64,000 bases of DNA from Bdellovibrionales bacterium Ga0074137. Lineage in GTDB: Bacteria > Bdellovibrionota > Bdellovibrionia > Bdellovibrionales > JAMPXM01. The DNA lies in contig LNDT01000018.1 in the NCBI GenBank assembly GCA_001464715.1, positions 19,625 to 83,624 of the forward strand, read 5' to 3'. Of the stretch, positions 6,267-64,000 are shown in pieces. The position numbers and the translations under genes were made by a program. Each line of letters begins with the position of its first letter. Position 1 is the stretch's first letter. The notes beneath the pieces are model-generated. The model was not told where the DNA came from. It saw only the letters and a program-made list of their open reading frames with translations, and did no database searches.

Positions 6267-7388
6267 GTGTCTTTCACTCTATTTCTACAAATTTTCGCCA
6301 ATGTGTTTTTCGCGGTTTGCATCTTCGTTATTTTTGCGCGTCTAAGAAGGCCCGCAAAAGATGACCCAAGACTTTCAAAAGGCCTTCAACTTCTTTCGAG
6401 CAAAATCGCCGTGCTTGAAGATTTGAGTGACCGAACTGAAACACAAGTGCAGCAAATGCTTTTGCTGCTTGATCAAAAGTCGAAAGAGCTTCAATCAAAA
6501 ATCGCTCTCGCGGAACAACAAGTTTTAGCCGTGCGACAGTCGATGGATCAGAGTTTGGAAGTCGCTCAGATCTTTCAAGACAAAATTCCTCATAGCGAAA
6601 TCATCGAACGCCAGAATTCCGTCAAGTACATCAAAGCCGCGCGAATGGCCCACGCGGGGGTATCGGTCACCGACATCGCCCGAGAGGTCGATCTCCCGAT
6701 GGGCGAGATCGAGTTCATCGCGAAGGTAAATCAGGACAGCTTGTCTTTCCGCGAGGAAGACTTGCCGGCCTGGGCGCGCGACCCACGTGCTGTGACTTCG
6801 CAAGAGGCTTCGCCCACAATCGATCCGATACCCGGATTTTCGGATGCTTCCGACAGCTCGGGTTTGGTTCAGAAGCTGAGTAAACTTCAGTTTGAAATGA
6901 AAAATCTTGATCTCGAGCTCGCTCACCGAGCGCAAAGAAATGTCGTTCCCGATATGACTCAGGCCTTCGAATCGCCACGCGCGGACTCGACAAGTCTTGA
7001 ACGCTTGGGTGAAGAGTTCCGCCGCGCCGTCGAGCAGGCCGAGCGCGATGCTCAACCGACACCGCACTTTATGATGACACCTGAATCGCCAGCTATCGAG
7101 CATTATGCAGTAGGCCCGGGCCCCACGGTGTCCGCAGAAACTGTTCCGTCGCAAGCTACGCCGGCCAATCCAACAGCGGCGGTCGCAAAAGCAACGGCCG
7201 TCGCCGGCAGATCACCGGCGACAACTGAAAAGTCAGCGGCTTATACCGCACCGACTAAATCTCTAGCTCGTGAAGTTTCAATTCCTGAACTCGAAGCCGC
7301 TCGCGCGGCCGCGGCGGCCCTTCGCGCGAGCGAACCAACTCCACCCGCACCCAAGAATATTCGGCGTGTCGAGTTCCCTAGAATTTAA
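6267..7388 (+). CDS. membrane-anchored coiled-coil protein, unknown function
   Basis: GTG start preceded by GGGGG. N-terminal TM helix (FANVFFAVCIFVIFA), a long heptad-like region, and an Ala/Pro/Thr-rich C-terminal half. Confidence 0.6.
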   Translation: MSFTLFLQIFANVFFAVCIFVIFARLRRPAKDDPRLSKGLQLLSSKIAVLEDLSDRTETQVQQMLLLLDQKSKELQSKIALAEQQVLAVRQSMDQSLEVAQIFQDKIPHSEIIERQNSVKYIKAARMAHAGVSVTDIAREVDLPMGEIEFIAKVNQDSLSFREEDLPAWARDPRAVTSQEASPTIDPIPGFSDASDSSGLVQKLSKLQFEMKNLDLELAHRAQRNVVPDMTQAFESPRADSTSLERLGEEFRRAVEQAERDAQPTPHFMMTPESPAIEHYAVGPGPTVSAETVPSQATPANPTAAVAKATAVAGRSPATTEKSAAYTAPTKSLAREVSIPELEAARAAAAALRASEPTPPAPKNIRRVEFPRI

Positions 7389-7441
7389 ACGGCAATGAGT
7401 GAGGATCCACGACGATGAGGCGTGTCTGGCAAAGGGGAGAA

Positions 7442-7678
7442 ATGCTTGAGGCCGCGATCGTCGAAATGATCGACGAGATCGATTTCATCGTCCGCTTCGG
7501 CGGTGGCCCTGACGAGCCCGACTCACAACTCCTGCGCGTCTCAAACCAAACCCATCAGCACTTAAAAGTCGGCGGCATCGTTCGCCTGCGCGTGATGGAA
7601 GTTCAACCGCTAAAATTCCAATACGTAGAACCCACCACCGAGCAACGCCGAAAAGGCCGCATCGACATCTCAATCTGA
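7442..7678 (+). CDS. small hypothetical protein
   Basis: The ATG at 7442 is preceded by GGGGAGAA. The ORF track starts at 7415. No recognisable motif. Confidence 0.35.
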   Translation: MLEAAIVEMIDEIDFIVRFGGGPDEPDSQLLRVSNQTHQHLKVGGIVRLRVMEVQPLKFQYVEPTTEQRRKGRIDISI

Positions 7679-7792
7679 CACTGCCGTGGCTCGACGAACG
7701 CACTGAATACCCCATTGTGAACAGCGAAACGAGGCCGGTGCTTTAAATAATTTTGAATGTCGTTTAACATATCCAAACGGAGGCAATTCTAA

Positions 7793-8278
7793 ATGAAATA
7801 TATTTTCCTTTCCTTTCTCTTTTTCTGGATTTCCGTAAAAGCCGATGCGCTCACTCTTCGACCCGGCGATCAAATCACTATGACTCAAACCGGCACCGAA
7901 GCTTCAAACTGGGAAATAAAAAGTCGTCTCGTGGGAAAGGCCAACGGCGAACATTTCGATCTTATATTGGGCGATGTCGGGCCGGATGGTCAGAATGACT
8001 TGGCCTATGCCACGCAAGTGACGGACACGACTTTGATCTCGAGTTACCTAGCGGCGGGTCAAACCGTGACACTCAGTGAGCCAGTGACGACTGTTGTGCT
8101 TTCGAACACCGCGAAGAGTCTCCGTGCAAAACTCAAGACAGACGCGAAGGCGGCAGCCATCTATGCCGAAAAACTCGAAGCACAATACTATGGTTCGAAG
8201 AGTTTGTTGGGCGACTGCTACCGCAATAAACGTAAACTAGATGAAAAGAGCCCACCGGCGTCCGAGATTAGGCGATAG
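7793..8278 (+). CDS. secreted hypothetical protein
   Basis: GGAGG lies 9 nt upstream of the ATG. N-terminal signal-like MKYIFLSFLFFWISVKA. Confidence 0.6.
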   Translation: MKYIFLSFLFFWISVKADALTLRPGDQITMTQTGTEASNWEIKSRLVGKANGEHFDLILGDVGPDGQNDLAYATQVTDTTLISSYLAAGQTVTLSEPVTTVVLSNTAKSLRAKLKTDAKAAAIYAEKLEAQYYGSKSLLGDCYRNKRKLDEKSPPASEIRR

Positions 8279-8330: not shown

Positions 8331-8374
8331 TCAGTTCGAGTTCGAACTCAAATCTCAGTTCGAACCCGAACTAG
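8331..8374. repeat. GTTCGAAC-containing low-complexity array (2 palindromes)
   Basis: tCAGTTCGAGTTCGAACtcaaatctcaGTTCGAACccgaactag. GTTCGAAC occurs at 8340 and 8358. The same 16-mer is found at 21401, 23202 and 24413. Confidence 0.7.
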
Positions 8375-21285: not shown

Positions 21286-21420
21286 CGGGTTGTGGTTCGA
21301 ACTGCGGGTTCTGTTCGAGTTTAGATTCGGTTTGAGTTCGCACTCGAGTCTGAGTTCGAGTTCGAACTGCGGGTTCGGAGTTTGGTTCGAGCTTGTGTTT
21401 CAGTTCGAGTTCGAACTGCT
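21286..21420. repeat. GTTCGAAC / GTTCGAG low-complexity array (3 palindromes)
   Basis: GTTCGAAC occurs at 21295, 21360 and 21409. The internal duplication GGTTCGAACTGCGGGTTC appears twice. AGTTCGAGTTCGAAC occurs at 21353 and 21402. Confidence 0.7.
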
Positions 21421-23180: not shown

Positions 23181-23228
23181 TTCAAGTTCGAACCTGAAAT
23201 TCAGTTCGAGTTCGAACCTGAACTTGAA
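23181..23228. repeat. GTTCGAAC array (2 palindromes)
   Basis: ttcaaGTTCGAACctgaaattCAGTTCGAGTTCGAACctgaacttgaac. Located in the 470-nt gap after tetR. Confidence 0.65.
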
Positions 23229-23591: not shown

Positions 23592-24719
23592 ATGAATCTC
23601 AAAATCCTATCGGACGAAACTTTGACTGAAAAACTTCGCGATCTTTCAAAGCGTGATCTGGCGCTCACGGCAGAGATCGTCTCGCACATTCATGAGTTTA
23701 TGGTGCGACGATTGTACCTCGATCACGGGTGCACCAGTATTTTCGGATATCTCACAGATCACCTTGGCTATCCGCGTGCCACCGCCCAAAACCGAATCGA
23801 TGCGGCTCGGTTGTTGGACGCTGTTCCGGAAATTAAAGAAGAGCTCGCCAATGGAAAGATTAGTCTTGGGCAAATCACTTTGATCTCGATGGGTGTTCGG
23901 CAGGCCGAGAAAGAAAATCCTGGGATGAAAGTGTCCGTCGATCAAAAGCGACATTTGGTCGAGAAGATCGCAAATCGCGGGAACGCTGAGACGGGCAGTG
24001 GATGCCTTTATGGCGAGCATGCCGAAAGTGGTGAAAAAACTGCGAAAAGCGGTAACGGTGGGTCGGTTAGGTCCGAACATGCATCTGCTCAAATCATAGC
24101 GCAGGAACTCGATATCAAAATCATTCCCGTTGAAAGAGTTCGTGTGCATCAAGACGGTTCGGTCACTATCGAAGTCCACCTTTCCAAAGAAGAATTCGAA
24201 AACCTAAAACGGGTCCGCGATCTAAACACGCACAAAAACCACAACGCAAAACTCGGCGAAACTGTCGCTGAGGCGGCGAAGTTCTTTTTAGAAAAAAAGG
24301 ATCCACGAAAATTAAAAACCAAAATTGACCTGCAGCAGGCGAAAACCGATTCGATTTCAGAAACTGGTTCGGATTCGAACTTGGAGGTAGGCTCGGGACC
24401 GAACCAAAATTTCAGTTCGAGTTCGAACTCGAAAGATGATTTGCCAAAAACCAGTACGGTCGCCTTGAGGCCGAGCGCCCAACTTCCAAAACGCATCCAG
24501 CGTAACTATATTAGTGTGCACGTTGTTCGCGCCCTTCATCAGCGAGACAAATCATGTCGGTGGCGGGACTCAACGGGCCACTTTTGCGGATCGACGTACC
24601 AGCTGCAAATCGATCACATCAGAGGACTTGCCGATGGTGGCGCCGACGCGATCGAAAATCTTGAGCTAAAATGCTCAATACACAACCGACGGAAGTTCGA
24701 ACTCGAACAACGTCAGTGA
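23592..24719 (+). CDS. HNH endonuclease (DUF222-like N-domain + C-terminal HNH)
   Basis: C-terminal LQIDHIRGLADGGADAIENLELKCSIHNRRK is an H-N-H motif. The N-terminus (LLDAVPEIKEELANGKISLGQ) resembles the DUF222/13E12-type family. GGAGGAG RBS. Confidence 0.85.
   Translation: MNLKILSDETLTEKLRDLSKRDLALTAEIVSHIHEFMVRRLYLDHGCTSIFGYLTDHLGYPRATAQNRIDAARLLDAVPEIKEELANGKISLGQITLISMGVRQAEKENPGMKVSVDQKRHLVEKIANRGNAETGSGCLYGEHAESGEKTAKSGNGGSVRSEHASAQIIAQELDIKIIPVERVRVHQDGSVTIEVHLSKEEFENLKRVRDLNTHKNHNAKLGETVAEAAKFFLEKKDPRKLKTKIDLQQAKTDSISETGSDSNLEVGSGPNQNFSSSSNSKDDLPKTSTVALRPSAQLPKRIQRNYISVHVVRALHQRDKSCRWRDSTGHFCGSTYQLQIDHIRGLADGGADAIENLELKCSIHNRRKFELEQRQ
24366..24432. repeat. GTTCGA-type repeat embedded in frame in the HNH gene linker
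   Basis: ggttcggATTCGAACttggaggtaggctcgggaccgaaccaaaatttCAGTTCGAGTTCGAACtcg, translated as GSDSNLEVGSGPNQNFSSSSNS. Confidence 0.6.
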
Positions 24720-55527: not shown

Positions 55528-58379
55528 AAGTCGTCCTTTTCCGTAAGCGCCGTCGAACACTTTCCACAGACGGTCGGGTGCTTTTTATCAGCACCGATTT
55601 CCTCACTCCAGTACCAGCAGCGCTCGCACTTTTCGCCCACAGCGTGTTCGGCGTTAATACCAAACTGTCCCACGTGAAGTTGAACTTGTGAAACAATAAA
55701 GAACTCGGGCAGCAAGGCTTCGTACTTTTTCAGCGCGGCCGCTTTTTCTCCGTCGGCCGTGATTTTGATGAGAGCATCAAGGCCCGACCCGATTGTTTTG
55801 GTCTGGCGCAGCTCCTCAAGTTTCTTAGTTACATCCGAGCGAACTGAAAAAAGCTCGCTCATTTCTCGGTCGAGAGCCTCATTGTCCCATTTGGAATCAG
55901 GCTTTGGGAACTCGCGCAGAAAAACGCTCTCGGACTTCGAACCGGGGAGGTAGCTGTAAGTTTCCTCGGCCAAAAACGAAGTGATGGGCGCCATGACACG
56001 AGTCAGGGTTTCTGCAATCGTGTAAAGGGCGGTTTGCGCCGAGCGACGTTCAATGCCGTCCCTCTTGAAGGTGTAAAGACGGTCTTTCAGCATATCCAGG
56101 TAACCCGCCGAAAGTGCGACGGTGAAGTACTGGGTCAGCGCGTGATAGACCTTGTAGAACTCGTAGCTATCAAAGGCCGTCGTCGCTTCACGGATCAGGC
56201 CGTTCAGACGACCCAATGCCCACTGATCAAGGAGAGTCATCTTCTCGAACGGGACAGAGTCTTTCACCGGATCGAAATCAGAAATATTGCCAAGGAAAAA
56301 CCGCATCGTATTTCTAAAGCGACGATACGTCTCGGTGACGCGGTCGAAACTTTCTTGGCCCGACGCCATGTCTTGACCGAAGTCGACATAGGAACACCAA
56401 AGCCTCAGAATTTCAGCGCCAGATTTTTTTGTCATCTCGACCGGATCGAGAGCGTTCCCCAGCGACTTTGACATTTTTCGCCCCTGGGCATCGTTGACGA
56501 AACCGTGGGTGACGAGCGCCTTGAATGGAGCTCGTCCTTCGGTCGCCATCGAAGCAAGAAGTGACGTCTGAAACCATCCGCGGTGCTGATCGCTGCCTTC
56601 AAGATAGATATCGGCTGGGTACTCCATTCCGTCGCGCCGCTTTTGAACTGCAGACCATGCGACACCGGAATCGAACCAAACATCTAAGATATCTTTTCCG
56701 CGCGTAAACTCGGTGCCGCCGCACTTCGAGCAGGGCAGAGGTTTCCCGTCTTTCGACTTCATGAAGTCAGATTCGGGATGCGCGTGGTAGGCCTCGATGC
56801 CGCCTTCTTTTTCGATCGCATCGGCCACACGGTCCATGACTTCGGCATCAGCCATAATGTGCTTGCAGGGCTTTCCAGCGACAACAGCGTTACATTCAAA
56901 AACGGGAATCGGAACACCCCAGATGCGTTGGCGCGATAAGCACCAGTCCGGACGATTCTCGATCATCGCGCGGAGACGCGCTTCCCCCCAAGCGGGGACG
57001 AATTTGATTTTTTCTATTTCTTTAAGAGCTCGGGCTCGCATTTGAGCGGCCTCTTTTGAAATCGTACGACCGCTATCGTCTTTTGCTCCTTCGACGAGGT
57101 CCATTCCAAGAAACCACTGCGGCGTCGCCCGGAAGATCAACGGAGTTTTAGAGCGCCAGTTGTGCGGGTACTGATGAACGAACTCTGTGAAGGAAAGAAG
57201 CGATTTATTGTCGCGCAAGCGCTGAACCACTAACGGGTTCGCGTCCCAAATTTTTGTGCCTAAATATTCGGGAACTTCTTCGGTGTATTTTCCTGCAGCA
57301 TCCACCGGTGACAAAACTTTAAGTCCGTACTGAAGGCCCACCCGGTAATCGTCTTGTCCGTGGCCGGGAGCCGTGTGAACCGCGCCCGTTCCTGCTTCCA
57401 TGGTCACGTGGGATCCGAGAACAATCAGCGAATCGCGATCATAAAAGGGGTGTCGCGCGTTCATTTTTTCAAACGCAGAACCCTTCGCAGTGACTCCTGT
57501 TGGAGTCAGCGTGAGGCCGGTGTTTTTCTCGACAGCTTCCTTGAGGCCTACGGCCAAAATTAAGATCCGGTCACCGGCATCAAAAAATCCGTAATCAAAA
57601 TCGGCATTCAGCGCCAATCCTAAGTTTGCAGGTAATGTCCAAGGTGTTGTCGTCCAGACCGCAAATCCCACGGGCTTTGATCCAAACTTTTCGGCGTCTT
57701 TGGCGAAAGCCGTCTTATGAGCCGCCGTAAATGCCGCCGTAAAATCCATGGTGAAGTAAATCGATGGCGACTTGTGTTCGTGGTACTCGACTTCAGCTTC
57801 AGCGAGCGCCGTCTGCAAAGTCGGGCACCAGTAAACGGGCTTCTCGCCACGGTACAATGTTCCTTTTCGCAACGCGCGCGCTAAGACGCGCACTTCTTCC
57901 GCCTCGTAGGCCGGATCCATTGTCAGGTAGGGATTGGACCAGTCGGCCATAACTCCGAGGCGACGAAATTGCTCACCTTGGTGCGAGACCCACTTCGCCG
58001 CTTCCGCGCGGCACATCGACCGAATTTCTGAATCCGATTTTTCTTTACGTTTTGCGCCCAGCGCTTTTGTGACATTCATCTCGATCGGAAGACCGTGACA
58101 ATCCCAACCCGGAATGAACGTCGCCGAAAACCCAGCCATGTTTTTGTATTTGACCGTGAAATCTTTGAGGCACTTGTTCAGAACGTGGCCCGTGTGAATG
58201 CTCCCGTTGGCGTAAGGTGGGCCGTCGGGCATCGTGAATGGCGTTCGGCCTTTGTTTTTGGCCATGAGCTTTTGATAAATCTGCTTCTTATCCCAATCCG
58301 CAATCATCAGCGGCTCGCGCTCGGGCAAATTCGCTTTCATCGGAAAGTCTGTTTTCGGAAGCTGGATAGTTTCTTTCAT
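55524..58379 (-). CDS. ileS: isoleucine--tRNA ligase
   Basis: PPYANGSIHTGH (HIGH motif), KMSKSLGN (KMSKS motif), and a C-terminal zinc motif CERCW...CGKC. The ATG at 58379 has an AAGAGG RBS. The tracked GTG start is 58409. Confidence 0.95.
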   Translation of the reverse strand: MKETIQLPKTDFPMKANLPEREPLMIADWDKKQIYQKLMAKNKGRTPFTMPDGPPYANGSIHTGHVLNKCLKDFTVKYKNMAGFSATFIPGWDCHGLPIEMNVTKALGAKRKEKSDSEIRSMCRAEAAKWVSHQGEQFRRLGVMADWSNPYLTMDPAYEAEEVRVLARALRKGTLYRGEKPVYWCPTLQTALAEAEVEYHEHKSPSIYFTMDFTAAFTAAHKTAFAKDAEKFGSKPVGFAVWTTTPWTLPANLGLALNADFDYGFFDAGDRILILAVGLKEAVEKNTGLTLTPTGVTAKGSAFEKMNARHPFYDRDSLIVLGSHVTMEAGTGAVHTAPGHGQDDYRVGLQYGLKVLSPVDAAGKYTEEVPEYLGTKIWDANPLVVQRLRDNKSLLSFTEFVHQYPHNWRSKTPLIFRATPQWFLGMDLVEGAKDDSGRTISKEAAQMRARALKEIEKIKFVPAWGEARLRAMIENRPDWCLSRQRIWGVPIPVFECNAVVAGKPCKHIMADAEVMDRVADAIEKEGGIEAYHAHPESDFMKSKDGKPLPCSKCGGTEFTRGKDILDVWFDSGVAWSAVQKRRDGMEYPADIYLEGSDQHRGWFQTSLLASMATEGRAPFKALVTHGFVNDAQGRKMSKSLGNALDPVEMTKKSGAEILRLWCSYVDFGQDMASGQESFDRVTETYRRFRNTMRFFLGNISDFDPVKDSVPFEKMTLLDQWALGRLNGLIREATTAFDSYEFYKVYHALTQYFTVALSAGYLDMLKDRLYTFKRDGIERRSAQTALYTIAETLTRVMAPITSFLAEETYSYLPGSKSESVFLREFPKPDSKWDNEALDREMSELFSVRSDVTKKLEELRQTKTIGSGLDALIKITADGEKAAALKKYEALLPEFFIVSQVQLHVGQFGINAEHAVGEKCERCWYWSEEIGADKKHPTVCGKCSTALTEKDDL

Positions 58380-58448
58380 CGGCCAAGCACCTCTTGATAA
58401 GGTACCCACGCTAGCATACGGCGAATTGATTCGTAAGAGCTGTTCGGA

Positions 58449-59135
58449 TCAAGTTAAGAGGGGCTTCAGACTTTTATACCCGATCGCGACCAGAGCGTTG
58501 ATAGCCTCAGCGTCGCTTGAAAGATTCAGTTTCTCTCGGACTTCGCTAATGATAGCGGCCGTCGTCGGAAGATTTGCCTGTGGGTTCACCTGTAGACTCG
58601 CCTGGGGATTCGCCGACGGATTCGTCCAGGCATTCGCGCTTGCGCCGGTGTTAAGGCCCATCGTCGAAACCTTTGATTGAGTTTTCACTTCGCCGTGAGC
58701 CGCCGACTGTGACAAAGCGCTGGCCATCGAAGCTGACATTGTGTGACCGGAACCACTTCCGGAACTGATCGCCGAACCATGACCCACCGGGCGATCGAAC
58801 TGACGCATTGCCTCATTGATCTGACGGAGATCCGAGAGAAAGTTTTGGCTACTGACGGGAGCTTCGGTTTCCATTCGGGGCGATTCCGGAACGCTTGGTT
58901 CCGGGCGAGCCATTTCGGGGCGGCCGCTCGATCGATAATAAAGCGTCATCAATCGGTCGGGATCCGAAGCCTGTTTGCGAATATGTTCGGGTTGATTAAC
59001 GAGCCAGTTGAACGCCGCTTGAAGATCGCCACGACCATAAGTGGCTGACGAAATGCCAGAAGAGACGCCAGAAGAAACGCCAGAAGACATGCCAGAAGAT
59101 GAGTTTGGGTGCGGCGGAAAACCTGAGGTCGACAT
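58449..59135 (-). CDS. hypothetical Ser/Gly-rich protein
   Basis: 228-aa ORF downstream of the sigma-54 activator. The N-terminal SSGMSSGVSSGVSSGISS is encoded by four 12-nt tandem units at 59053-59100. No recognised domain. Confidence 0.55.
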   Translation of the reverse strand: MSTSGFPPHPNSSSGMSSGVSSGVSSGISSATYGRGDLQAAFNWLVNQPEHIRKQASDPDRLMTLYYRSSGRPEMARPEPSVPESPRMETEAPVSSQNFLSDLRQINEAMRQFDRPVGHGSAISSGSGSGHTMSASMASALSQSAAHGEVKTQSKVSTMGLNTGASANAWTNPSANPQASLQVNPQANLPTTAAIISEVREKLNLSSDAEAINALVAIGYKSLKPLLT

Positions 59136-59262
59136 AAGGGAGCGACGTTAACGACGCGCCTACGTTTCACTCAAGAAAAAACAAGCTTTGATCAAGTTTT
59201 AAGCACCGCAATCAGCGTCAAATTCTCAACCGCAACCACCGCCGATTTGGTGGCCGTGATTT

Positions 59263-60852
59263 CTATTTTGGATCAGCGTAGTCGCGCGCAATGATGCCGT
59301 ACTTTTCGATTTTTCGAAGAAGTGTCTTCTTCGGAATGTTGGCGTGAAGCGCGGTTTGGTTGATCCGACCTTTGAAAGTCTTCAGAGCTTTGACGATGAA
59401 TTCACGCTCGAAAGCTTCTTTGTGTTTATTGAAATCAAGTGTGTCGCCACCGATGGAAACGCTCGGAATAGATTCATCGATATCGCTCGAGTCGATGGCG
59501 TCTCCGCCATTCAAAGAACCAAGGGACGATTCGTCATCGCAGTCTTCATCCTCTGTCCCGCGAGCCAACCCAGTGTCCGAGTGGGCCGTCAATCTCTGAG
59601 TCGCCATTGGCGAACTCATCGCAGCCATCTCGTTGGAAGTTTGGATCAGCGCTTCGAGTCCCGCGCCGTTCAATTGAACGCCGACGGCATTCAAAACATT
59701 TTCTGGAATCGAAGTGAGCGAAAGTGTGTTGGAGCTTTCAAGAATAAAGCAGTGCTCGATCACATTCTCGAGCTCTCGAATATTTCCGGGCCAGCTGTAG
59801 CGCTTTAATACAACCATCGCGTCCGGAGCGACATTCGTGATGCGCTTACTGTGCGCCAAGTTGAACTTTTTGATGAAGCCCGAAACAAGATTTTCGAGAT
59901 CGTTTTTACGCTCGCTCAGAGCCGGCAAATAAATTGGCACAACGTTGAGACGGTAATAGAGGTCTTCCCGGAATTTACCCTCGGCGATCATTGTCTCAAG
60001 GTTCCGATTGGTCGCAGCGATCACGCGAACATTGGATTCGATCTCGCGATTCGAACCAACGGGCGTGAAGACCTTTTCTTGAAGAACTCGAAGAAGCTTA
60101 ACCTGCATCGTGATCGGCATTTCGCCAAGCTCATCAAGAAAAAGCGTTCCACCTTCGGCATATTGAAACCGCCCGATTTTTCTTTCGTGGGCACCTGTGA
60201 AAGAGCCTTTTTCGTGACCGAAAAGTTCACTTTCAAAAAGATTCTCAGGAATCGCAGAGCAGTTGATGGCGACGAACTTGCCGTCTTTTCTTGAGCTATT
60301 AAAATGAACAGCGCGGGCGACGAGTTCTTTTCCAGTTCCAGAAGCGCCGCGAATCAAAACCGGAGTGTCGACTTTTGAGAGCCGGTTGATGATGTTAAAG
60401 ACCTTCTGCATTTCGTTCGAAGAGCCAATAATTTTCCGACCGGCTTCAGTCAAAATCGGGGCACTTGCAGCGATACTTGAAATCAGCGACTGAGCCTTAA
60501 GTGCTCGCTCGGTCATGCTGAGTAGGTCTTCCGAAGCGACGGGTTTTGACAAATAGTTGTAGGCGCCCTCTTTTACGACGGCGACAGCATCATCAATGTT
60601 GGCGTAGGCGGTCATAATAATGACCTGAATAGAGGGATCGAATTCTTTAATGAGTTTCAGAGCTTCCAGACCAGATAGGCGAGGCATGTCGACATCAAGA
60701 ACCACAAGATCAAAGCGACCTGCGCGAACCTTTTCGACGGCTTCTAGGCCGTCATGAGCCTCATGGACATCGTAGCTTTTGACAGAAGCGAGAGCTTCTC
60801 TGACCGAGAATCGAAGTCCAGCATCATCATCGGCAACGAGAATTCGAAGCAC
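59263..60852 (-). CDS. sigma-54-dependent response regulator (REC + AAA+ + Fis-type HTH, NtrC family)
   Basis: Receiver LVVLDVDMPRLSG. Walker A GASGTGKE. ESELFGHEKGSFTGA (the GAFTGA loop). C-terminal HTH NQTALHANIPKKTLLRKIEKYGI. An acidic insert precedes the HTH. Confidence 0.9.
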   Translation of the reverse strand: MLRILVADDDAGLRFSVREALASVKSYDVHEAHDGLEAVEKVRAGRFDLVVLDVDMPRLSGLEALKLIKEFDPSIQVIIMTAYANIDDAVAVVKEGAYNYLSKPVASEDLLSMTERALKAQSLISSIAASAPILTEAGRKIIGSSNEMQKVFNIINRLSKVDTPVLIRGASGTGKELVARAVHFNSSRKDGKFVAINCSAIPENLFESELFGHEKGSFTGAHERKIGRFQYAEGGTLFLDELGEMPITMQVKLLRVLQEKVFTPVGSNREIESNVRVIAATNRNLETMIAEGKFREDLYYRLNVVPIYLPALSERKNDLENLVSGFIKKFNLAHSKRITNVAPDAMVVLKRYSWPGNIRELENVIEHCFILESSNTLSLTSIPENVLNAVGVQLNGAGLEALIQTSNEMAAMSSPMATQRLTAHSDTGLARGTEDEDCDDESSLGSLNGGDAIDSSDIDESIPSVSIGGDTLDFNKHKEAFEREFIVKALKTFKGRINQTALHANIPKKTLLRKIEKYGIIARDYADPK

Positions 60853-60861
60853 TTGATCCCC

Positions 60862-62727
60862 TTAGATAGTTGGTAATTCAACAGTGAACGTAGACCCTTG
60901 CCCCTCGGTCGAATCCACACTGATCCGGCCTTTATGCAATTCCACGAAGTATTTAGCAAGATAGAGACCGAGACCGGAACCTTTAATGGCGGATCCTTTG
61001 GCGTTTCGACTGCGATAAAATTTCATAAAGATGCGAGGAAGTTCATCCTCAGGAATGCCAGGGCCCTGATCAGCGACCTGAACGACAATCCAGCCGTCGC
61101 GCTCTTCGGTCGTCACGAGGATCGAACTATTTTCAGGGCTGTACTTGATGGCGTTTTCTACCAGGTTCGAGAGCACTTGTTTCATGAGGTCCACATCGAA
61201 ACGAATGCTGAAAAGGGTCTCAAGCTCGGTTCTAATCTCGATTTGCTTCGACCGAGCGAGGTAATCCAGTTTGGCAACAACGTCGCGGACCACGCTATTG
61301 ACGTCTTTTGAATGAAAGTGCAGCTGGATCGCCTTGGATTCGATCCGCCCAAGATTCAGAACTCCGGTGATAAATTCTAAAAGCTCGTCGCTGGAGCGCC
61401 TTAATGTGTCGACCGCCTCTTTCTGACGTGGCGACAATGGGTTTGGATCCGACTTCACGACGTCGGCCATACCTTGGATGCGAGCAATCGGAGTTTTCAG
61501 ATCGTGCGACATCATCGAGAGAAAATTGGTTTTCAGTTCTTCGACCTGAGTGAGCAATTTGTTTTTCTGGTAATACTCCCAGCTTCGCCGATTCTCGAGA
61601 ATGAGGCGGTAGGGAATAAAAAAGTAGTAGCAGATGAAGATGGCCAAAAACGGATGAGCCATGTCGATCCACGTTTGACCGATCCAAAGCGTGAGTAAGG
61701 CCACGACAAAGTAGCCAAAAATGGTGGAACCTAACGTTAAGAGGCCGGTCGTTGGAGTCAGCGTCAGCACGACAATCACTGTCAGGTAAGAGATGAGCCC
61801 GGTGATGAGAATATTCACCCAGCGGGGGGCGCGTGTCGTCGCATCATTGCGAATGACCGTATCGAACATGTTTGCGCTGAGTTCGACAATGGTCATGGCA
61901 ACAATGTCGCGGGAGTAGGGCGTCCGAACGTAGTCTTTTGAGGTTGTCTGAATGTCGCGACCGACGATGACGATCTTACCTTTAAACTTTTTAAGACTTT
62001 CTCGAGATTCCTCGGCAAGCAAACTTGAATAGCTGCTGGGAACGTAAGTTCCGGTGGGGGCGAACTGAATGTAGAGCTGATCGCTTTGCAAATATTCAAA
62101 AACGCCACGAAAAGCGTCGCGCTGGTAACCTTCAGCCGTTTGGAATTTAGACTTTAGATCAGGATTAAATTCGCCGGCAATGATCGGGTGAAGCGTCGGT
62201 AACCCTTGGTAGGCGAGCATCATTCGGCGCGAGACATCGTCTCGGGCAAAAATATTTCGGTCGACCGGAACCGGCGCACTGGCGGCACGCACGTTTTCGA
62301 ATGGAGGTGATAACTGAAGGGCGTTTTTTTCTCCACTTAAGGGAACGTCGTCGACGGCCACATAAAAGTTTGTGAGGCTCGCAGCTGTTTTTGCGAGAGA
62401 TCGCACCTCATCAAGAGACCCGACAGCTTCGTTCGGGTTTACGAGCGAGACGATGCTATGGGCCCCTGCCTCATGAAGTCGTTCAATCAGGACCCGAAAG
62501 TCATTGGCGTTTGGCACCCGCCCAAGATTTTGAATCGTTGCCGCATCGATAACGATAGTTTCGATAAAGCCTGAAGGTGCTGGAGGCGGGCGAAGCCGGA
62601 CGCGAGCGTCGTAGAGAAATGATTCGATATAATCAAAAGGGAACTGTGTGAGGATCGCTGTGATCGCAAAAGCAAACGCAAGTCGCGACAAGTGAACTAA
62701 AATCTTGCGCCAGCGACTTGCGGTCAT
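60862..62727 (-). CDS. sensor histidine kinase with a CHASE2-like periplasmic domain
   Basis: The N-terminal TM plus IVIDAATIQNLGRVP... fits a CHASE2 layout. Three TM helices follow. H-box MSHDLKTPIARIQG. HATPase DQGPGIPE...GSGLGLYLAK. Confidence 0.85.
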   Translation of the reverse strand: MTASRWRKILVHLSRLAFAFAITAILTQFPFDYIESFLYDARVRLRPPPAPSGFIETIVIDAATIQNLGRVPNANDFRVLIERLHEAGAHSIVSLVNPNEAVGSLDEVRSLAKTAASLTNFYVAVDDVPLSGEKNALQLSPPFENVRAASAPVPVDRNIFARDDVSRRMMLAYQGLPTLHPIIAGEFNPDLKSKFQTAEGYQRDAFRGVFEYLQSDQLYIQFAPTGTYVPSSYSSLLAEESRESLKKFKGKIVIVGRDIQTTSKDYVRTPYSRDIVAMTIVELSANMFDTVIRNDATTRAPRWVNILITGLISYLTVIVVLTLTPTTGLLTLGSTIFGYFVVALLTLWIGQTWIDMAHPFLAIFICYYFFIPYRLILENRRSWEYYQKNKLLTQVEELKTNFLSMMSHDLKTPIARIQGMADVVKSDPNPLSPRQKEAVDTLRRSSDELLEFITGVLNLGRIESKAIQLHFHSKDVNSVVRDVVAKLDYLARSKQIEIRTELETLFSIRFDVDLMKQVLSNLVENAIKYSPENSSILVTTEERDGWIVVQVADQGPGIPEDELPRIFMKFYRSRNAKGSAIKGSGLGLYLAKYFVELHKGRISVDSTEGQGSTFTVELPTI

Positions 62728-62748
62728 TTTTCGATAACCACCCTAAAA

Positions 62749-62967
62749 CTAAAGATCGATTCCCGAGACTGGAATACAGCCTCCGCCGGGCCGAGTACCA
62801 GTGCCTGACGCGTGCGACGGCGGCTGAATCTTCGAGTTCTCCATTTGCACAGCGGTCGAATCCGACGCACCAGCAGTGGTGGAGCTTGAATTCTGTCCAG
62901 AAATAGTACCGACGTTCGAACTCGCATTCGACGACGTGTGCTTATTGAGGACTTTAATGAATTTCAC
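62749..62967 (-). CDS. candidate small ORF (72 aa, Ser/Thr/Gly/Asn-rich, single Cys near the C-terminus); speculative peptide substrate
   Basis: The GTG at 62967 is preceded by GGAG-N6 and lies 10 nt before the radical-SAM stop. It ends in ...TRPGGGCIPVSGIDL. It fills the 226-nt gap before the kinase gene. It also contains a GTTCGAAC repeat motif, so it may be non-coding filler. Confidence 0.25.
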   Translation of the reverse strand: MKFIKVLNKHTSSNASSNVGTISGQNSSSTTAGASDSTAVQMENSKIQPPSHASGTGTRPGGGCIPVSGIDL

Positions 62968-64000
62968 TGGCGGCTCCGTTCTGATTCCGGTCTGTGTGAT
63001 ATCTTGCTTCGGCATAACGTTCAATTCCTTTGGCAATGATCGTTCGAGTTCGCTCACAGTAGGCCTGGTCGACCTTGTGTTTATTTCCTGTTTTCACTTT
63101 ATTGACGTGCATACAGCCGCCGCCGCAGATGTGGCGGGCCCAGCACGTGTTGCAACCGCTTTTCTCGACGAGAGGCTCTTGAAATGTCGTGAACTTCGGA
63201 TTTTGTGGAGAAAGATCAAGTGTCGTTCCCTGGCCCAGTATTTCGTCAGCTTGGCCTACGAACCACTGACAAGCCGTGAAGCGGCCATCGGTGTCGAGCT
63301 GCAAGTGATTCTTTCCCGCGAGGCAGTGGTTCTCGACCCGAAGCCCACTATCGAGTGTTTCAAAGAGATGGTTGAAGGTGTGAAGTCTTCGAAGTTCGGT
63401 CTCTCCGCCGCGAAGAAACGCCAACTCGGCCACGTCCACAACGCCTTGAGCGAATCGTCGCGACGCGAATTCATCACCGGCTTCGGCCGCAAAGTCGAAT
63501 TTCATCGAGTCAAACGGAAGCTCGGAGAGAAACTTCCAAGCGGCGACGACATTCAAATTGTGGGAACCAAAAACGGCACCTGCAGTGAGCGATCCCAAAC
63601 GATCTTTCACTTTGATGAGCTCGGCCAATCCCTTTAAAATCATAGCACTTGATCCACGTCCCGATTTTGTGAGGCGCGCGCGGTCATTGTCTTCCGGCGC
63701 ACCGTCGATCGACACAGTGACGTTCGCTTGAAGTTTTGCCAGGAGCTCTGCGATTTCAGGCGTAACGAGAGTTCCGTTGGTCACGATATCGAAACGAAGT
63801 TTGATATCGCGGCCGACAACGAGAAGTTGAGCCTCTCTCGCCAGAGACGAAATTAATTCTGGAACCAAAAGTGGTTCGCCGCCCAAAAACGTGATGGCAA
63901 AGCGTCCGCCCGTGGGCACTTTTTCAAGAAGCATCGCAAGCTGTAAGCGTGTGCGTTCAAGTTCGGGAGTTTTAATTTTCGAACCATAGGTTCCGTCGCC
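62954..64000 (-). CDS. radical SAM protein with a C-terminal SPASM domain (5'-truncated by the window edge)
   Basis: The frame is open to nt 64000. ITFLGGEPLL and IVTNGTL are radical-SAM core strands. SPASM cysteines: C-x20-C (HCLAGK...RFTAC), then CNTCWARHICGGGC, then AYC. The CxxxCxxC cluster would lie outside the window. Confidence 0.85.
   Translation of the reverse strand, partial: GDGTYGSKIKTPELERTRLQLAMLLEKVPTGGRFAITFLGGEPLLVPELISSLAREAQLLVVGRDIKLRFDIVTNGTLVTPEIAELLAKLQANVTVSIDGAPEDNDRARLTKSGRGSSAMILKGLAELIKVKDRLGSLTAGAVFGSHNLNVVAAWKFLSELPFDSMKFDFAAEAGDEFASRRFAQGVVDVAELAFLRGGETELRRLHTFNHLFETLDSGLRVENHCLAGKNHLQLDTDGRFTACQWFVGQADEILGQGTTLDLSPQNPKFTTFQEPLVEKSGCNTCWARHICGGGCMHVNKVKTGNKHKVDQAYCERTRTIIAKGIERYAEARYHTDRNQNGAASEIH

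What the first reader, a model, noticed from the sequence alone, without database searches (positions are those of the whole stretch)
62749..64000. Radical-SAM/SPASM enzyme followed by a small Ser/Thr/Gly-rich ORF and a CHASE2 kinase / sigma-54 activator pair: possible peptide-modification locus
The truncated minus-strand gene at the window edge has a full SPASM cysteine set (C-x20-C, CxxCx5Cx3C, then a trailing C). This is typical of peptide- or protein-modifying radical-SAM maturases such as the anSME and sactipeptide/ranthipeptide-type enzymes. A 72-aa ORF starts 10 nt before the enzyme's stop (GTG at 62967, with GGAG 6 nt upstream) and ends in GGGCIPVSGIDL, which has a single Cys. It exactly fills the gap to the next gene. 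Next in the same direction are a CHASE2 sensor kinase, a sigma-54 enhancer-binding response regulator and a Ser/Gly-rich 228-aa protein. A maturase next to its substrate and a dedicated two-component system would be a coherent and, as far as I can tell, undescribed arrangement. The caveat is that the small ORF contains a GTTCGAAC repeat motif and may just be repeat-derived spacer. The enzyme's upstream partners lie outside the window.
Basis: inference. Interest (0 to 1): 0.6.

Follow-up and report, generated by a model that had tools for sequence, protein, structure and literature searches.

The report
Radical-SAM peptide plus sensor-kinase cassette
The small ORF is a real, conserved gene for a one-cysteine peptide that sits between a radical-SAM peptide-modifying enzyme and a membrane sensor kinase/sigma-54 activator pair in predatory Bdellovibrio-type bacteria, an undescribed cassette arranged like known peptide-pheromone operons.

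Summary
The truncated gene is a radical-SAM/SPASM enzyme. The source contig gives its full 498 aa, with CxxxCxxC and an N-terminal domain that resembles a leader-binding domain. There is no sulfatase nearby.

The 72-aa ORF is a real gene. In about 77 related Bdellovibrionales loci, and in 4 more distant ones, the same position holds a small ORF with three features:
- an N-terminal M-K-[FHY]-I-K-K-V-K-P motif;
- a linker of variable length;
- exactly one Cys, in an invariant C-x-P core (G-x-x-C-[IVL]-P-x-[G/R/K]).

The Cys and Pro codons vary synonymously.

The order enzyme, peptide, CHASE2 kinase, sigma-54 activator is kept wherever contigs are long enough, even when the flanking genes differ. 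A -24/-12 sigma-54 promoter motif precedes the enzyme gene in 69 of 75 loci (0.04 expected per locus).

No NCBIfam or Pfam family covers the enzyme or the peptide, and I found no paper on it.

Best reading: a sigma-54 autoregulated peptide-maturase and two-component cassette that resembles ComQXPA or agr. Most likely the lone Cys is made into a thioether. Whether the kinase senses the peptide is inferred, not shown.

The parts
62954..64000 (-). Radical-SAM/SPASM peptide maturase: the C-terminal 348 codons plus stop. The N-terminal 150 aa, which include CxxxCxxC and the RRE-like domain, lie beyond the window edge. The full gene is L001:8278-9774 (498 aa).
   Evidence: The Radical_SAM Pfam hit and the SPASM TIGR04085 hit (46 bits, cutoff 27) are both present. 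The best curated families all score below their cutoffs. CteB is the closest solved structure.
63056..63325 (-). SPASM auxiliary-cluster region with seven conserved cysteines (C-x17-C ... CxxCx5Cx3C ... x18-C).
   Evidence: translation. One search shows C376, C394, C433, C436, C442, C446 and C465 invariant in 13 homologues. One search shows one Cys in the first loop, as in CteB, where anSME has two.
62974..62977 (-). Shine-Dalgarno GGAG, 6 nt upstream of the peptide's GTG start.
   Evidence: One search shows GGAG at the same offset in most of 27 related loci.
62749..62967 (-). Precursor peptide gene, 72 aa: fM-KFIKVLNKH...RPGGGCIPVSGIDL.
   Evidence: It is conserved in all related loci, with exactly one Cys, an invariant C-x-P and synonymous codon variation.
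62950..62967 (-). N-terminal leader motif M-K-F-I-K-V (family consensus M-K-[FHY]-I-K-K-V-K-P).
   Evidence: I4 and K5 are nearly invariant.
62761..62787 (-). Core motif G-G-G-C-I-P-V-S-G. The Cys codon TGT is at 62776-62778 and the Pro codon CCA at 62770-62772.
   Evidence: (C and P at +2 in 76 of 76 peptides; G at -3 in 52 of 76).
60862..62727 (-). CHASE2 sensor histidine kinase, 621 aa: TM 8-27, extracytoplasmic CHASE2 domain about 28-301, three TM segments 302-378, then HisKA and HATPase_c.
   Evidence: It lies downstream of the enzyme and peptide in every locus with enough sequence.
59263..60852 (-). NtrC-type sigma-54 enhancer-binding response regulator, 529 aa: REC, AAA+ with GSFTGA and Walker A, then HTH_8.
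58449..59135 (-). Ser/Gly-rich 228-aa protein. It is often syntenic, but it probably does not belong to the operon.
   Evidence: One search shows weak homologues (22-46% identity) downstream in many loci. One search shows a terminator between the activator gene and this gene in L030. It is absent next to the cassette in L084-L086, and L083 has a weak homologue.

Best explanation
The locus is a four-gene cassette: a radical-SAM/SPASM maturase, its precursor peptide, a CHASE2 sensor kinase and an NtrC-type sigma-54 activator. It is conserved across Bdellovibrionales.

Shown:
- The enzyme has an rSAM core, a seven-Cys SPASM domain of the CteB type and an N-terminal beta/alpha domain.
- The peptide is a translated, selected gene with a Lys-rich N-terminal motif and a single Cys in an invariant C-x-P core.
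- The four genes stay together even when the neighbouring genes change.
- In most relatives a sigma-54 -24/-12 promoter motif precedes the enzyme gene.
- In B. bacteriovorus a terminator follows the activator gene.

Inferred:
- The N-terminal domain binds the M-K-x-I-K-K leader.
- The enzyme modifies the core at the lone Cys. The most likely product is a thioether cross-link, formed with the Cys thiolate bound at the open site of auxiliary cluster I, as in CteB, PapB and QhpD.
- The activator encoded in the operon drives the operon's own sigma-54 promoter, which would give positive feedback.
- The modified peptide is the signal that the extracytoplasmic CHASE2 domain detects. That would make the cassette a functional analogue of ComQXPA or agrBDCA.
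For: - Enzyme class: searches place it nearest PapB (175 bits), QhpD (155), the nif11 maturase (152) and the SCIFF maturase (127). From established knowledge, at least PapB, QhpD and the SCIFF maturase make Cys thioethers. CteB is the best PDB match by sequence (E=1e-20, or 3e-41 with the profile) and by fold (E=1e-19, 476 aligned columns, N-terminal domain included). CxxxCxxC and seven auxiliary Cys are invariant.
- N-terminal domain: the model shows four strands and two helices at residues 30-94, with pLDDT 80-88.
- Peptide: it is present in about 77 loci plus 4 distant ones. Among 76 distinct peptides, each has one Cys, and C and P(+2) occur in 76 of 76. Cys is encoded by TGC 51 times and TGT 22 times, and Pro uses all four codons. 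The start codon is GTG or ATG in 27 of 27 loci, with a conserved GGAG. Two loci carry tandem copies.
- Linkage: the kinase follows in all loci with enough downstream sequence, and the activator follows in nearly all. The same holds in distant relatives with unrelated flanks.
- Promoter: [TC]GG-N8-TTGC[AT] lies within 400 nt upstream in 69 of 75 loci, against 0.04 expected per locus. In the window's clade it is the only invariant island in the intergenic alignment.
- Operon end: in L030 a strong terminator sits right after the activator gene and none lies inside the four genes.
- Kinase and activator: the kinase has a CHASE2 topology, and the activator has GSFTGA.
- Weak hint of coevolution: peptide-core divergence correlates with CHASE2 divergence after controlling for the other domains (partial r=0.19; 0 of 300 permutations reached it).
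Against: - No exporter or leader peptidase is conserved in or next to the cassette, and the peptide has no signal sequence. How it would reach a periplasmic or extracellular sensor is unexplained.
- No conserved acceptor residue for a thioether is evident. Only C, P(+2) and mostly G(-3) are conserved.
- The C-x-P core also resembles the sulfatase C-x-P-x-R motif.
- In the window's own genome the promoter motif starts with CGG and lies 233 nt upstream of the ATG, outside the window. One distant locus (L085) has no adjacent sigma-54 activator.
- The partial Mantel result is weak, and such tests are inflated by shared phylogeny.
- No expression, mass-spectrometry or binding data exist.
Confidence: 0.6

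Rival explanations
1. A regulated natural product or cofactor, not a pheromone. The enzyme and peptide are a genuine RiPP pair. The CHASE2 kinase senses some other cue, such as prey, envelope state or nutrients, and merely switches the operon on. The modified peptide acts elsewhere, for example as an antimicrobial or predation factor, a metal or redox ligand, or an intracellular effector.
For: This rival draws on the same evidence for the enzyme-peptide pair and the sigma-54 promoter. No exporter lies in the cassette, and the peptide has no signal sequence. No CHASE2 ligand is known (PMC10581220), so there is no precedent for a peptide ligand.
Against: The kinase stays adjacent to the peptide over deep divergence and through changes of neighbourhood. 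The gene order matches ComQXPA and agrBDCA. Peptide-core divergence tracks CHASE2 divergence weakly. A product with a single small core, conserved across a whole order, is atypical for an antimicrobial.
Confidence: 0.3
2. anSME-like chemistry. The enzyme oxidises the lone Cys to C-alpha-formylglycine, as anaerobic sulfatase-maturating enzymes do on C/S-x-P/A-x-R, and so produces an aldehyde-bearing peptide.
For: C-x-P is invariant, and the B. bacteriovorus-type peptides end in C-I-P-V-R, the exact C-x-P-x-R motif, in 11 of 76 peptides. anSME is among the top structural matches (E=8e-15).
Against: The anSME model TIGR03942 scores 55 bits against a cutoff of 349 and ranks behind four Cys-peptide maturase families (PapB, QhpD, nif11, SCIFF). 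This family has seven auxiliary Cys as in CteB, whereas anSME has eight. Position +4 is Gly in 36 of 76 peptides and Arg in only 11. The enzyme has an N-terminal domain that anSME lacks. No sulfatase is nearby.
Confidence: 0.12
3. The small ORF is not the substrate. The enzyme acts on another protein, such as the kinase's CHASE2 domain or the Ser/Gly-rich protein, and the small ORF is a regulatory leader peptide or a chance ORF.
For: No direct evidence exists for translation or modification. Gene callers disagree on the start: they aa, while comparison supports 72 aa.
Against: The C-x-P core and the N-terminal motif are conserved at the amino-acid level with synonymous variation. The start codon and SD are conserved. 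Two loci have tandem duplicates. The enzyme's N-terminal domain resembles the leader-binding domain of CteB. The Ser/Gly-rich protein is not consistently linked.
Confidence: 0.04

Closest known systems
CteB/SCIFF, PapB (ranthipeptide) and QhpD: Cys-thioether-forming radical-SAM/SPASM maturases
   Same: The enzyme has an rSAM core with CxxxCxxC, a seven-Cys SPASM domain with a CteB-like pattern, and an N-terminal domain in the position of the CteB RRE. A short precursor gene lies directly next to the enzyme gene. These families give the best HMM, sequence and fold matches.
   Different: The enzyme scores far below every curated cutoff: 175 vs 340, 127 vs 425 and 155 vs 453. The substrate has one Cys only and no conserved Asp, Glu or Thr acceptor. 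Its invariant C-x-P core is new. The cassette includes a CHASE2 kinase and a sigma-54 activator, which are not features of those systems.
ComQXPA (Bacillus) and agrBDCA (Staphylococcus) peptide quorum-sensing operons (from established knowledge)
   Same: The gene order is identical: modifying enzyme, precursor peptide, membrane histidine kinase, response regulator. The operon probably activates itself through its own regulator. As with ComX, no exporter is encoded in the operon.
   Different: None of the proteins is homologous. The modifying enzyme is a radical-SAM enzyme rather than an isoprenyl transferase or a membrane protease. The sensor is a CHASE2 domain rather than a polytopic membrane sensor. 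The regulator is a sigma-54 AAA+ activator. Secretion and sensing are untested.
Anaerobic sulfatase-maturating enzyme (anSME) with its C/S-x-P/A-x-R substrates
   Same: The fold is SPASM, and the target Cys is followed by x-P. Some peptides end in C-I-P-V-R.
   Different: There is no sulfatase nearby. This family has seven auxiliary Cys, not eight, and an extra N-terminal domain. The HMM scores 55 bits against a cutoff of 349. Arg at +4 occurs in only 11 of 76 peptides.
RaS-RiPPs of streptococci (e.g. streptide) and SCIFF ranthipeptides linked to quorum sensing in clostridia (Chen et al. 2020, cited in PMC13635244)
   Same: Radical-SAM-modified peptides are tied to cell-cell signalling circuits.
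   Different: Those systems are controlled by Rgg/SHP or by unlinked regulators in Firmicutes. Here a two-component system is fused into the operon, and the host is a Gram-negative predator.

Membership tests
Radical-SAM/SPASM peptide maturases (general class) | CxxxCxxC radical-SAM cluster motif | tested here: met
   C140-x3-C144-x2-C147 in the full-length protein from the source contig. The motif lies just outside the window.
Radical-SAM/SPASM peptide maturases (general class) | SPASM domain (TIGR04085) with auxiliary-cluster cysteines | tested here: met
   TIGR04085 scores 46.3 bits against a cutoff of 27. Seven Cys are invariant.
Radical-SAM/SPASM peptide maturases (general class) | Adjacent short precursor peptide with a conserved leader and core | tested here: met
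Radical-SAM/SPASM peptide maturases (general class) | Leader-binding RRE (PqqD-like) domain | tested here: inconclusive
   The AF2 model has four strands and two helices at residues 30-94 with pLDDT 80-88. The Foldseek alignment to CteB spans 476 columns, against about 385 for anSME. No RRE or PqqD HMM hit was obtained, and no binding test was done.
Anaerobic sulfatase-maturating enzyme (TIGR03942) | HMM score above the curated cutoff | tested here: not met
   54.6 bits against a cutoff of 349. It is absent from the full-length protein's hit list at E<=1e-20, which held 11 families.
Anaerobic sulfatase-maturating enzyme (TIGR03942) | Neighbouring sulfatase substrate gene | tested here: not met
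   No sulfatase Pfam hit among the genes within 10 kb on either side in L001 or in L083-L086.
Anaerobic sulfatase-maturating enzyme (TIGR03942) | Eight auxiliary Cys, with both clusters fully ligated | tested here: not met
   Seven are conserved. There is one Cys where anSME has two.
PapB ranthipeptide maturase (NF047865) | HMM score above cutoff, and a substrate with repeated C-x3-D/E motifs | tested here: not met
   175 bits against a cutoff of 340. The peptides have one Cys and no conserved acidic residue.
SCIFF maturase (TIGR03974) | HMM score above cutoff, and a six-Cys-in-45 substrate | tested here: not met
   127 bits against a cutoff of 425. The peptides have a single Cys.
QhpD (TIGR03906) | HMM score above cutoff, and neighbouring quinohemoprotein amine dehydrogenase subunit genes | tested here: not met
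   155 bits against a cutoff of 453. The neighbours are a kinase and an activator.
ComQXPA/agr-type peptide quorum-sensing cassette (functional class) | Gene order: modifying enzyme, precursor, histidine kinase, response regulator in one operon | tested here: met
ComQXPA/agr-type peptide quorum-sensing cassette (functional class) | Autoregulation by the operon's own regulator | tested here: inconclusive
   A sigma-54 promoter motif lies upstream in 69 of 75 loci, and a sigma-54 activator is encoded in the operon. The binding site and the dependence on the activator were not shown.
ComQXPA/agr-type peptide quorum-sensing cassette (functional class) | Peptide secreted and sensed by the kinase | not testable with these tools
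   The only evidence is indirect: persistent linkage, plus a weak partial correlation between peptide-core and CHASE2 divergence.
ComQXPA/agr-type peptide quorum-sensing cassette (functional class) | Homology to ComQ/ComX/ComP/ComA or AgrB/D/C/A | tested here: not met
   The Pfam and NCBIfam hits are rSAM/SPASM, CHASE2-HisKA and NtrC-type only.

The most novel reading that the evidence does not exclude
The cassette is a peptide-pheromone (quorum- or kin-sensing) system found throughout Bdellovibrionales. A radical-SAM-cross-linked C-x-P peptide would be the first identified ligand of a CHASE2 sensor domain, and it would feed back through a sigma-54 activator. That would give predatory Bdellovibrio a previously unrecognised cell-cell signalling circuit.
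Probability: 0.3. Interest if true: 0.85.

Novelty: new variant of a known kind. Interest (0 to 1): 0.68.

Why it matters
Radical-SAM/SPASM peptide maturases are a known class. This enzyme family and its one-Cys C-x-P precursor are in no curated family (NCBIfam release 20, Pfam), and I found no paper that describes them.

The fixed coupling to a CHASE2 kinase and a sigma-54 activator is unusual. It persists across Bdellovibrionales, including B. bacteriovorus strains, a genetically tractable species, and behind a conserved sigma-54 promoter motif. A 2023 paper still describes CHASE2 domains as having unknown ligands (PMC10581220).

If the peptide is the signal, three things follow:
- a first candidate ligand for CHASE2 domains;
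- a new chemotype of Gram-negative peptide pheromone;
- a route into how predatory bacteria coordinate their behaviour.

Even if the peptide is not a signal, the locus defines a new precursor and maturase family whose chemistry can be tested directly.

Tried and rejected
- anSME reading: rejected as the main reading, for the reasons given in the anSME membership rows.
- Repeat-derived spacer: rejected. GTTCGAAC occurs once in the ORF, and the region has no repeat family.
- The 88-aa ATG start used by gene callers (window 63015) and the 102-aa GTG ORF: rejected in favour of GTG 62967. The upstream 'MPKQDI' is the alternate frame of the enzyme's conserved IERYAEARY tail. The position before K-[FHY]-I-K-K is always GTG or ATG, with GGAG 6 nt upstream.
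- A second cluster of sigma-54-like matches about 3.2 kb downstream: this is a coding coincidence in the kinase G2 box (GLGLYLA) and not a promoter.
- Conserved upstream partners: none found. PBP1A, Cpn10 and a 478-aa gene are syntenic in only some loci. The HNH-endonuclease fragments and DUF4440 are specific to the source contig.
- Lipoprotein idea (Cys plus lspA/lgt nearby): rejected. The peptide has no hydrophobic signal region, Leu is at -2 rather than -3, and the distant loci lack ileS-lspA.
- Rfam: no RNA family in 58300-64000.
- Literature: searches for Bdellovibrio with radical SAM, SPASM, CHASE2, ranthipeptide or sigma-54 found nothing on this locus.
- Partial Mantel test of peptide core against CHASE2: a positive but weak result. 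I treat it as a hint only.
Full report
**Observation**

On the minus strand the window ends inside a radical-SAM gene whose stop is at 62954-62956. Its C-terminal part carries C-x17-C, CxxCx5Cx3C and a trailing Cys 18 residues later.

A 72-codon ORF starts at GTG 62967, with GGAG at 62977-62974, 6 nt upstream. It overlaps the enzyme gene by 14 nt and ends at 62749 with ...RPGGGCIPVSGIDL, which holds its only Cys. The kinase ATG follows 21 nt later, at 62727.

Pfam and NCBIfam confirm CHASE2+HisKA+HATPase_c for 60862-62727. They also confirm REC+Sigma54_activat+AAA_lid+HTH_8 for 59263-60852. No Rfam family matches.

**Beyond the window**

An exact look-up of the kinase recovered the source contig, JGI 3300002461 (175 kb), held here as L001, together with a second copy of the locus from another sample. 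The full enzyme is 498 aa (L001:8278-9774), with C140-x3-C144-x2-C147.

The upstream genes are two fragments of an HNH endonuclease, a DUF4440 gene on the other strand, and further away a PBP1A gene. There is no sulfatase, transporter or peptidase. The HNH and DUF4440 genes are specific to this contig.

**What the enzyme is**

The SPASM model TIGR04085 is met (46 bits, cutoff 27). No curated equivalog is met. For the full-length protein the best scores are PapB 175 (cutoff 340), QhpD 155 (453), nif11-type maturase 152 (519) and SCIFF maturase 127 (425). The anSME model scored 55 (349) on the fragment.

The closest solved structure by sequence is the SCIFF thioether synthase CteB (5WGG), with E=1e-20 for the single sequence and 3e-41 for the family profile. 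TigE, anSME, ChlB and SkfB follow.

An AlphaFold2 model built from 13 homologues has pLDDT 75 and pTM 0.76. It shows a confident N-terminal domain of four strands and two helices at residues 30-94. Foldseek puts CteB first (E=1e-19) with 476 aligned columns, so the N-terminal domain is included. anSME aligns over about 385 columns.

Seven auxiliary cysteines are invariant. In the first SPASM loop the family has one Cys, as CteB does, where anSME has two. From what is known of CteB, this pattern leaves an open iron site on auxiliary cluster I that binds the substrate Cys. That favours thioether chemistry, but it is an inference.

**The small ORF is a gene**

I scanned one genome per GTDB species with a profile of the enzyme. 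The scan returned 80 loci, all but one labelled Bdellovibrionales, Bdellovibrionota, Bdellovibrionaceae or Pseudobdellovibrionaceae (the exception is a MAG labelled Bacillota). They include complete B. bacteriovorus genomes.

Every locus with enough downstream sequence has a small same-strand ORF between the enzyme and the kinase. Its N-terminus reads M-K-[FHY]-I-K-K-[VI]-K-P, or M-x(3-8)-H-I-K-K-V-K-P in Bdellovibrio proper. A linker of very variable length follows, and the C-terminus reads G-x-x-C-[IVL]-P-x-[G/R/K/S]. Examples:
- MTKKTHIKKVKPLKPALPNPGIKGGPGTGNGEGCIPVR
- MKTTLQDHIKKVKPSKRIRTSSTGLACIPSGNPPDAAN

Among 76 distinct peptides:
- each has exactly one Cys;
- Cys and Pro(+2) occur in 76 of 76;
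- Gly(-3) occurs in 52 of 76;
- Ile, Val or Leu at +1 occurs in 64 of 76.

The invariant Cys is encoded by TGC 51 times and TGT 22 times, and the invariant Pro uses all four codons (29, 20, 14 and 10). The constraint is therefore on the amino acids, not on the DNA. Two loci (L015, L052) carry two tandem copies.

In 27 of 27 loci of the window's wider clade, the codon before K-[FHY]-I-K-K is GTG (23) or ATG (4), and never another Val codon. GGAG lies 6 nt upstream in most of them. The 88-aa ORF called by gene callers begins in the alternate frame of the enzyme's conserved C-terminal tail.

Databases hold such peptides only as 'hypothetical protein'. NCBIfam and Pfam have no model for them.

**The cassette**

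tblastn with the window's proteins shows the CHASE2 kinase directly downstream in all loci with enough sequence, followed by the sigma-54 activator.

A profile search of 1.8 billion representative proteins shows the enzyme family reaching down to about 230-330 bits before it merges into other SPASM families. I looked up four of these outlying members. They have unrelated flanking genes, for example SodB/SufE/QueF or a 3D-domain protein. All four keep the enzyme, a small ORF ending in ...G-x-G-C-[IR]-P-x-[GR]..., and a CHASE2 kinase. Three of the four also keep the sigma-54 activator. The linkage is therefore functional and not merely frozen synteny with ileS-lspA.

The kinase has a TM segment at residues 8-27, a hydrophilic CHASE2 region at 28-301, and three TM segments at 302-378. 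The activator has GSFTGA and a Walker A motif.

**Regulation**

The motif [TC]GG-N8-TTGC[AT], the sigma-54 -24/-12 consensus, occurs within 400 nt upstream of the enzyme's conserved N-terminus in 69 of 75 eligible loci. The background density across all loci predicts 0.04 per locus. In B. bacteriovorus it reads TGGAACGCTTATTGCA and lies about 25-30 nt before the ATG.

In the window's clade it reads CGG...TTGCT and is the only invariant island in an otherwise unalignable intergenic region. For this genome it lies at L001:8030-8045, about 700 nt beyond the window edge.

A second cluster of matches about 3.2 kb downstream is a coding artefact of the kinase G2 box. In B. bacteriovorus s4 a strong bidirectional terminator follows the activator gene, and none lies within the four genes. 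The cassette is thus most simply a four-gene operon with a sigma-54 promoter that encodes its own sigma-54 activator. The Ser/Gly-rich protein lies outside it.

**How it most likely works**

The chain of shown and inferred steps is set out under the best explanation. In brief, I infer that the N-terminal domain binds the Lys-rich leader. I also infer that the enzyme modifies the C-x-P core, most likely as a thioether, and that the activator feeds back on the operon's promoter. The fourth inference is that the modified peptide is the input of the CHASE2 kinase.

This fourth step rests on three things:
- the persistent adjacency of the genes;
- the identical gene order in ComQXPA and agrBDCA (established knowledge);
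- a weak partial correlation between peptide-core and CHASE2 divergence (partial r=0.19, 0 of 300 permutations; kinase core 0.13; activator and enzyme about 0). This test is known to be liberal.

A 2023 paper still describes CHASE2 ligands as unknown (PMC10581220).

The main gap is export. The peptide has no signal sequence, and no transporter or peptidase is linked to the cassette.

**Rivals**

- The peptide is a regulated product with another role, and the kinase senses something else (0.3).
- The chemistry is formylglycine formation. The Bdellovibrio peptides end in C-I-P-V-R, the sulfatase motif, but Arg(+4) occurs in only 11 of 76 peptides, and the enzyme resembles CteB rather than anSME (0.12).
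- The ORF is not the substrate (0.04).

**Novelty**

The class, a radical-SAM/SPASM maturase with its precursor, is known. Three things appear undescribed:
- this enzyme family;
- the one-Cys C-x-P precursor;
- the hard-wired CHASE2 and sigma-54 two-component partner behind a conserved sigma-54 promoter.

NCBIfam release 20 and Pfam have no model for them. Full-text searches returned nothing on this locus. I rate it a new variant of a known kind, with interest 0.68. It is conserved across an order of predatory bacteria that includes a tractable model organism, and it makes a candidate CHASE2 ligand directly testable.

Noticed in passing
window 8340-8365, 21295-21416, 23186-23217, 24421-24702, 51221, 62914: The palindrome GTTCGAAC occurs 11 times in the window, against 2.4 expected (0 of 100 shuffles reached 11). 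Most copies sit in small clusters far from this locus. Their meaning is unknown.
   Followed up: partly
L001:6922-7326 and 7432-7953 (source contig, beyond the window edge): Two consecutive ORFs look like a split HNH endonuclease (a DUF222-like N-terminal part, then the ...EYDHVTPVSLGG...HN part). They lie between the conserved upstream genes and the enzyme's promoter. They are absent from relatives except for a weak match in L005, so this is probably a decayed mobile insertion.
   Followed up: partly
L029-L069 (Bdellovibrio loci), about 100-110 nt upstream of the sigma-54 promoter motif, e.g. L030 about 6845-6870: A strongly conserved element, approximately GAAATAGTTTCCTTTTGCCCCCA, followed by AAAATACACCACC, sits upstream of the -24/-12 motif. 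It is a candidate enhancer (activator-binding) site or IHF site.
   Followed up: no
L015:8229-8557 and L052:3464-3707: Two tandem copies of the precursor peptide gene lie between the enzyme and the kinase, and their core sequences differ slightly.
   Followed up: partly
L030:4571-6775 (minus strand); also L029, L040, L049: In a few Bdellovibrio genomes a second kinase is transcribed divergently from the cassette's promoter region. It is 734 aa, its CHASE2 hit is borderline (26.1 bits against a cutoff of 26.3), and it may carry a C-terminal receiver-like extension.
   Followed up: partly
window 63013-63015 vs 62965-62967: Public gene calls give the peptide as 88 aa starting at ATG 63015. Comparative evidence supports GTG 62967 (72 aa). 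The upstream 16 codons are the alternate frame of the enzyme's conserved C-terminus.
   Followed up: yes
window 58449-59135: The Ser/Gly-rich 228-aa protein has no Pfam or NCBIfam family. Weak homologues lie downstream of the activator gene in many loci, and also in the distant locus L083. Its function is unknown, and it is probably transcribed separately.
   Followed up: partly
window 60970-60985 (kinase G2 box; = L001:11758): The codons for GLGLYLA in the kinase create a sequence that matches the sigma-54 -24/-12 pattern in many loci. It is a coding coincidence that a naive promoter scan would misread.
   Followed up: yes
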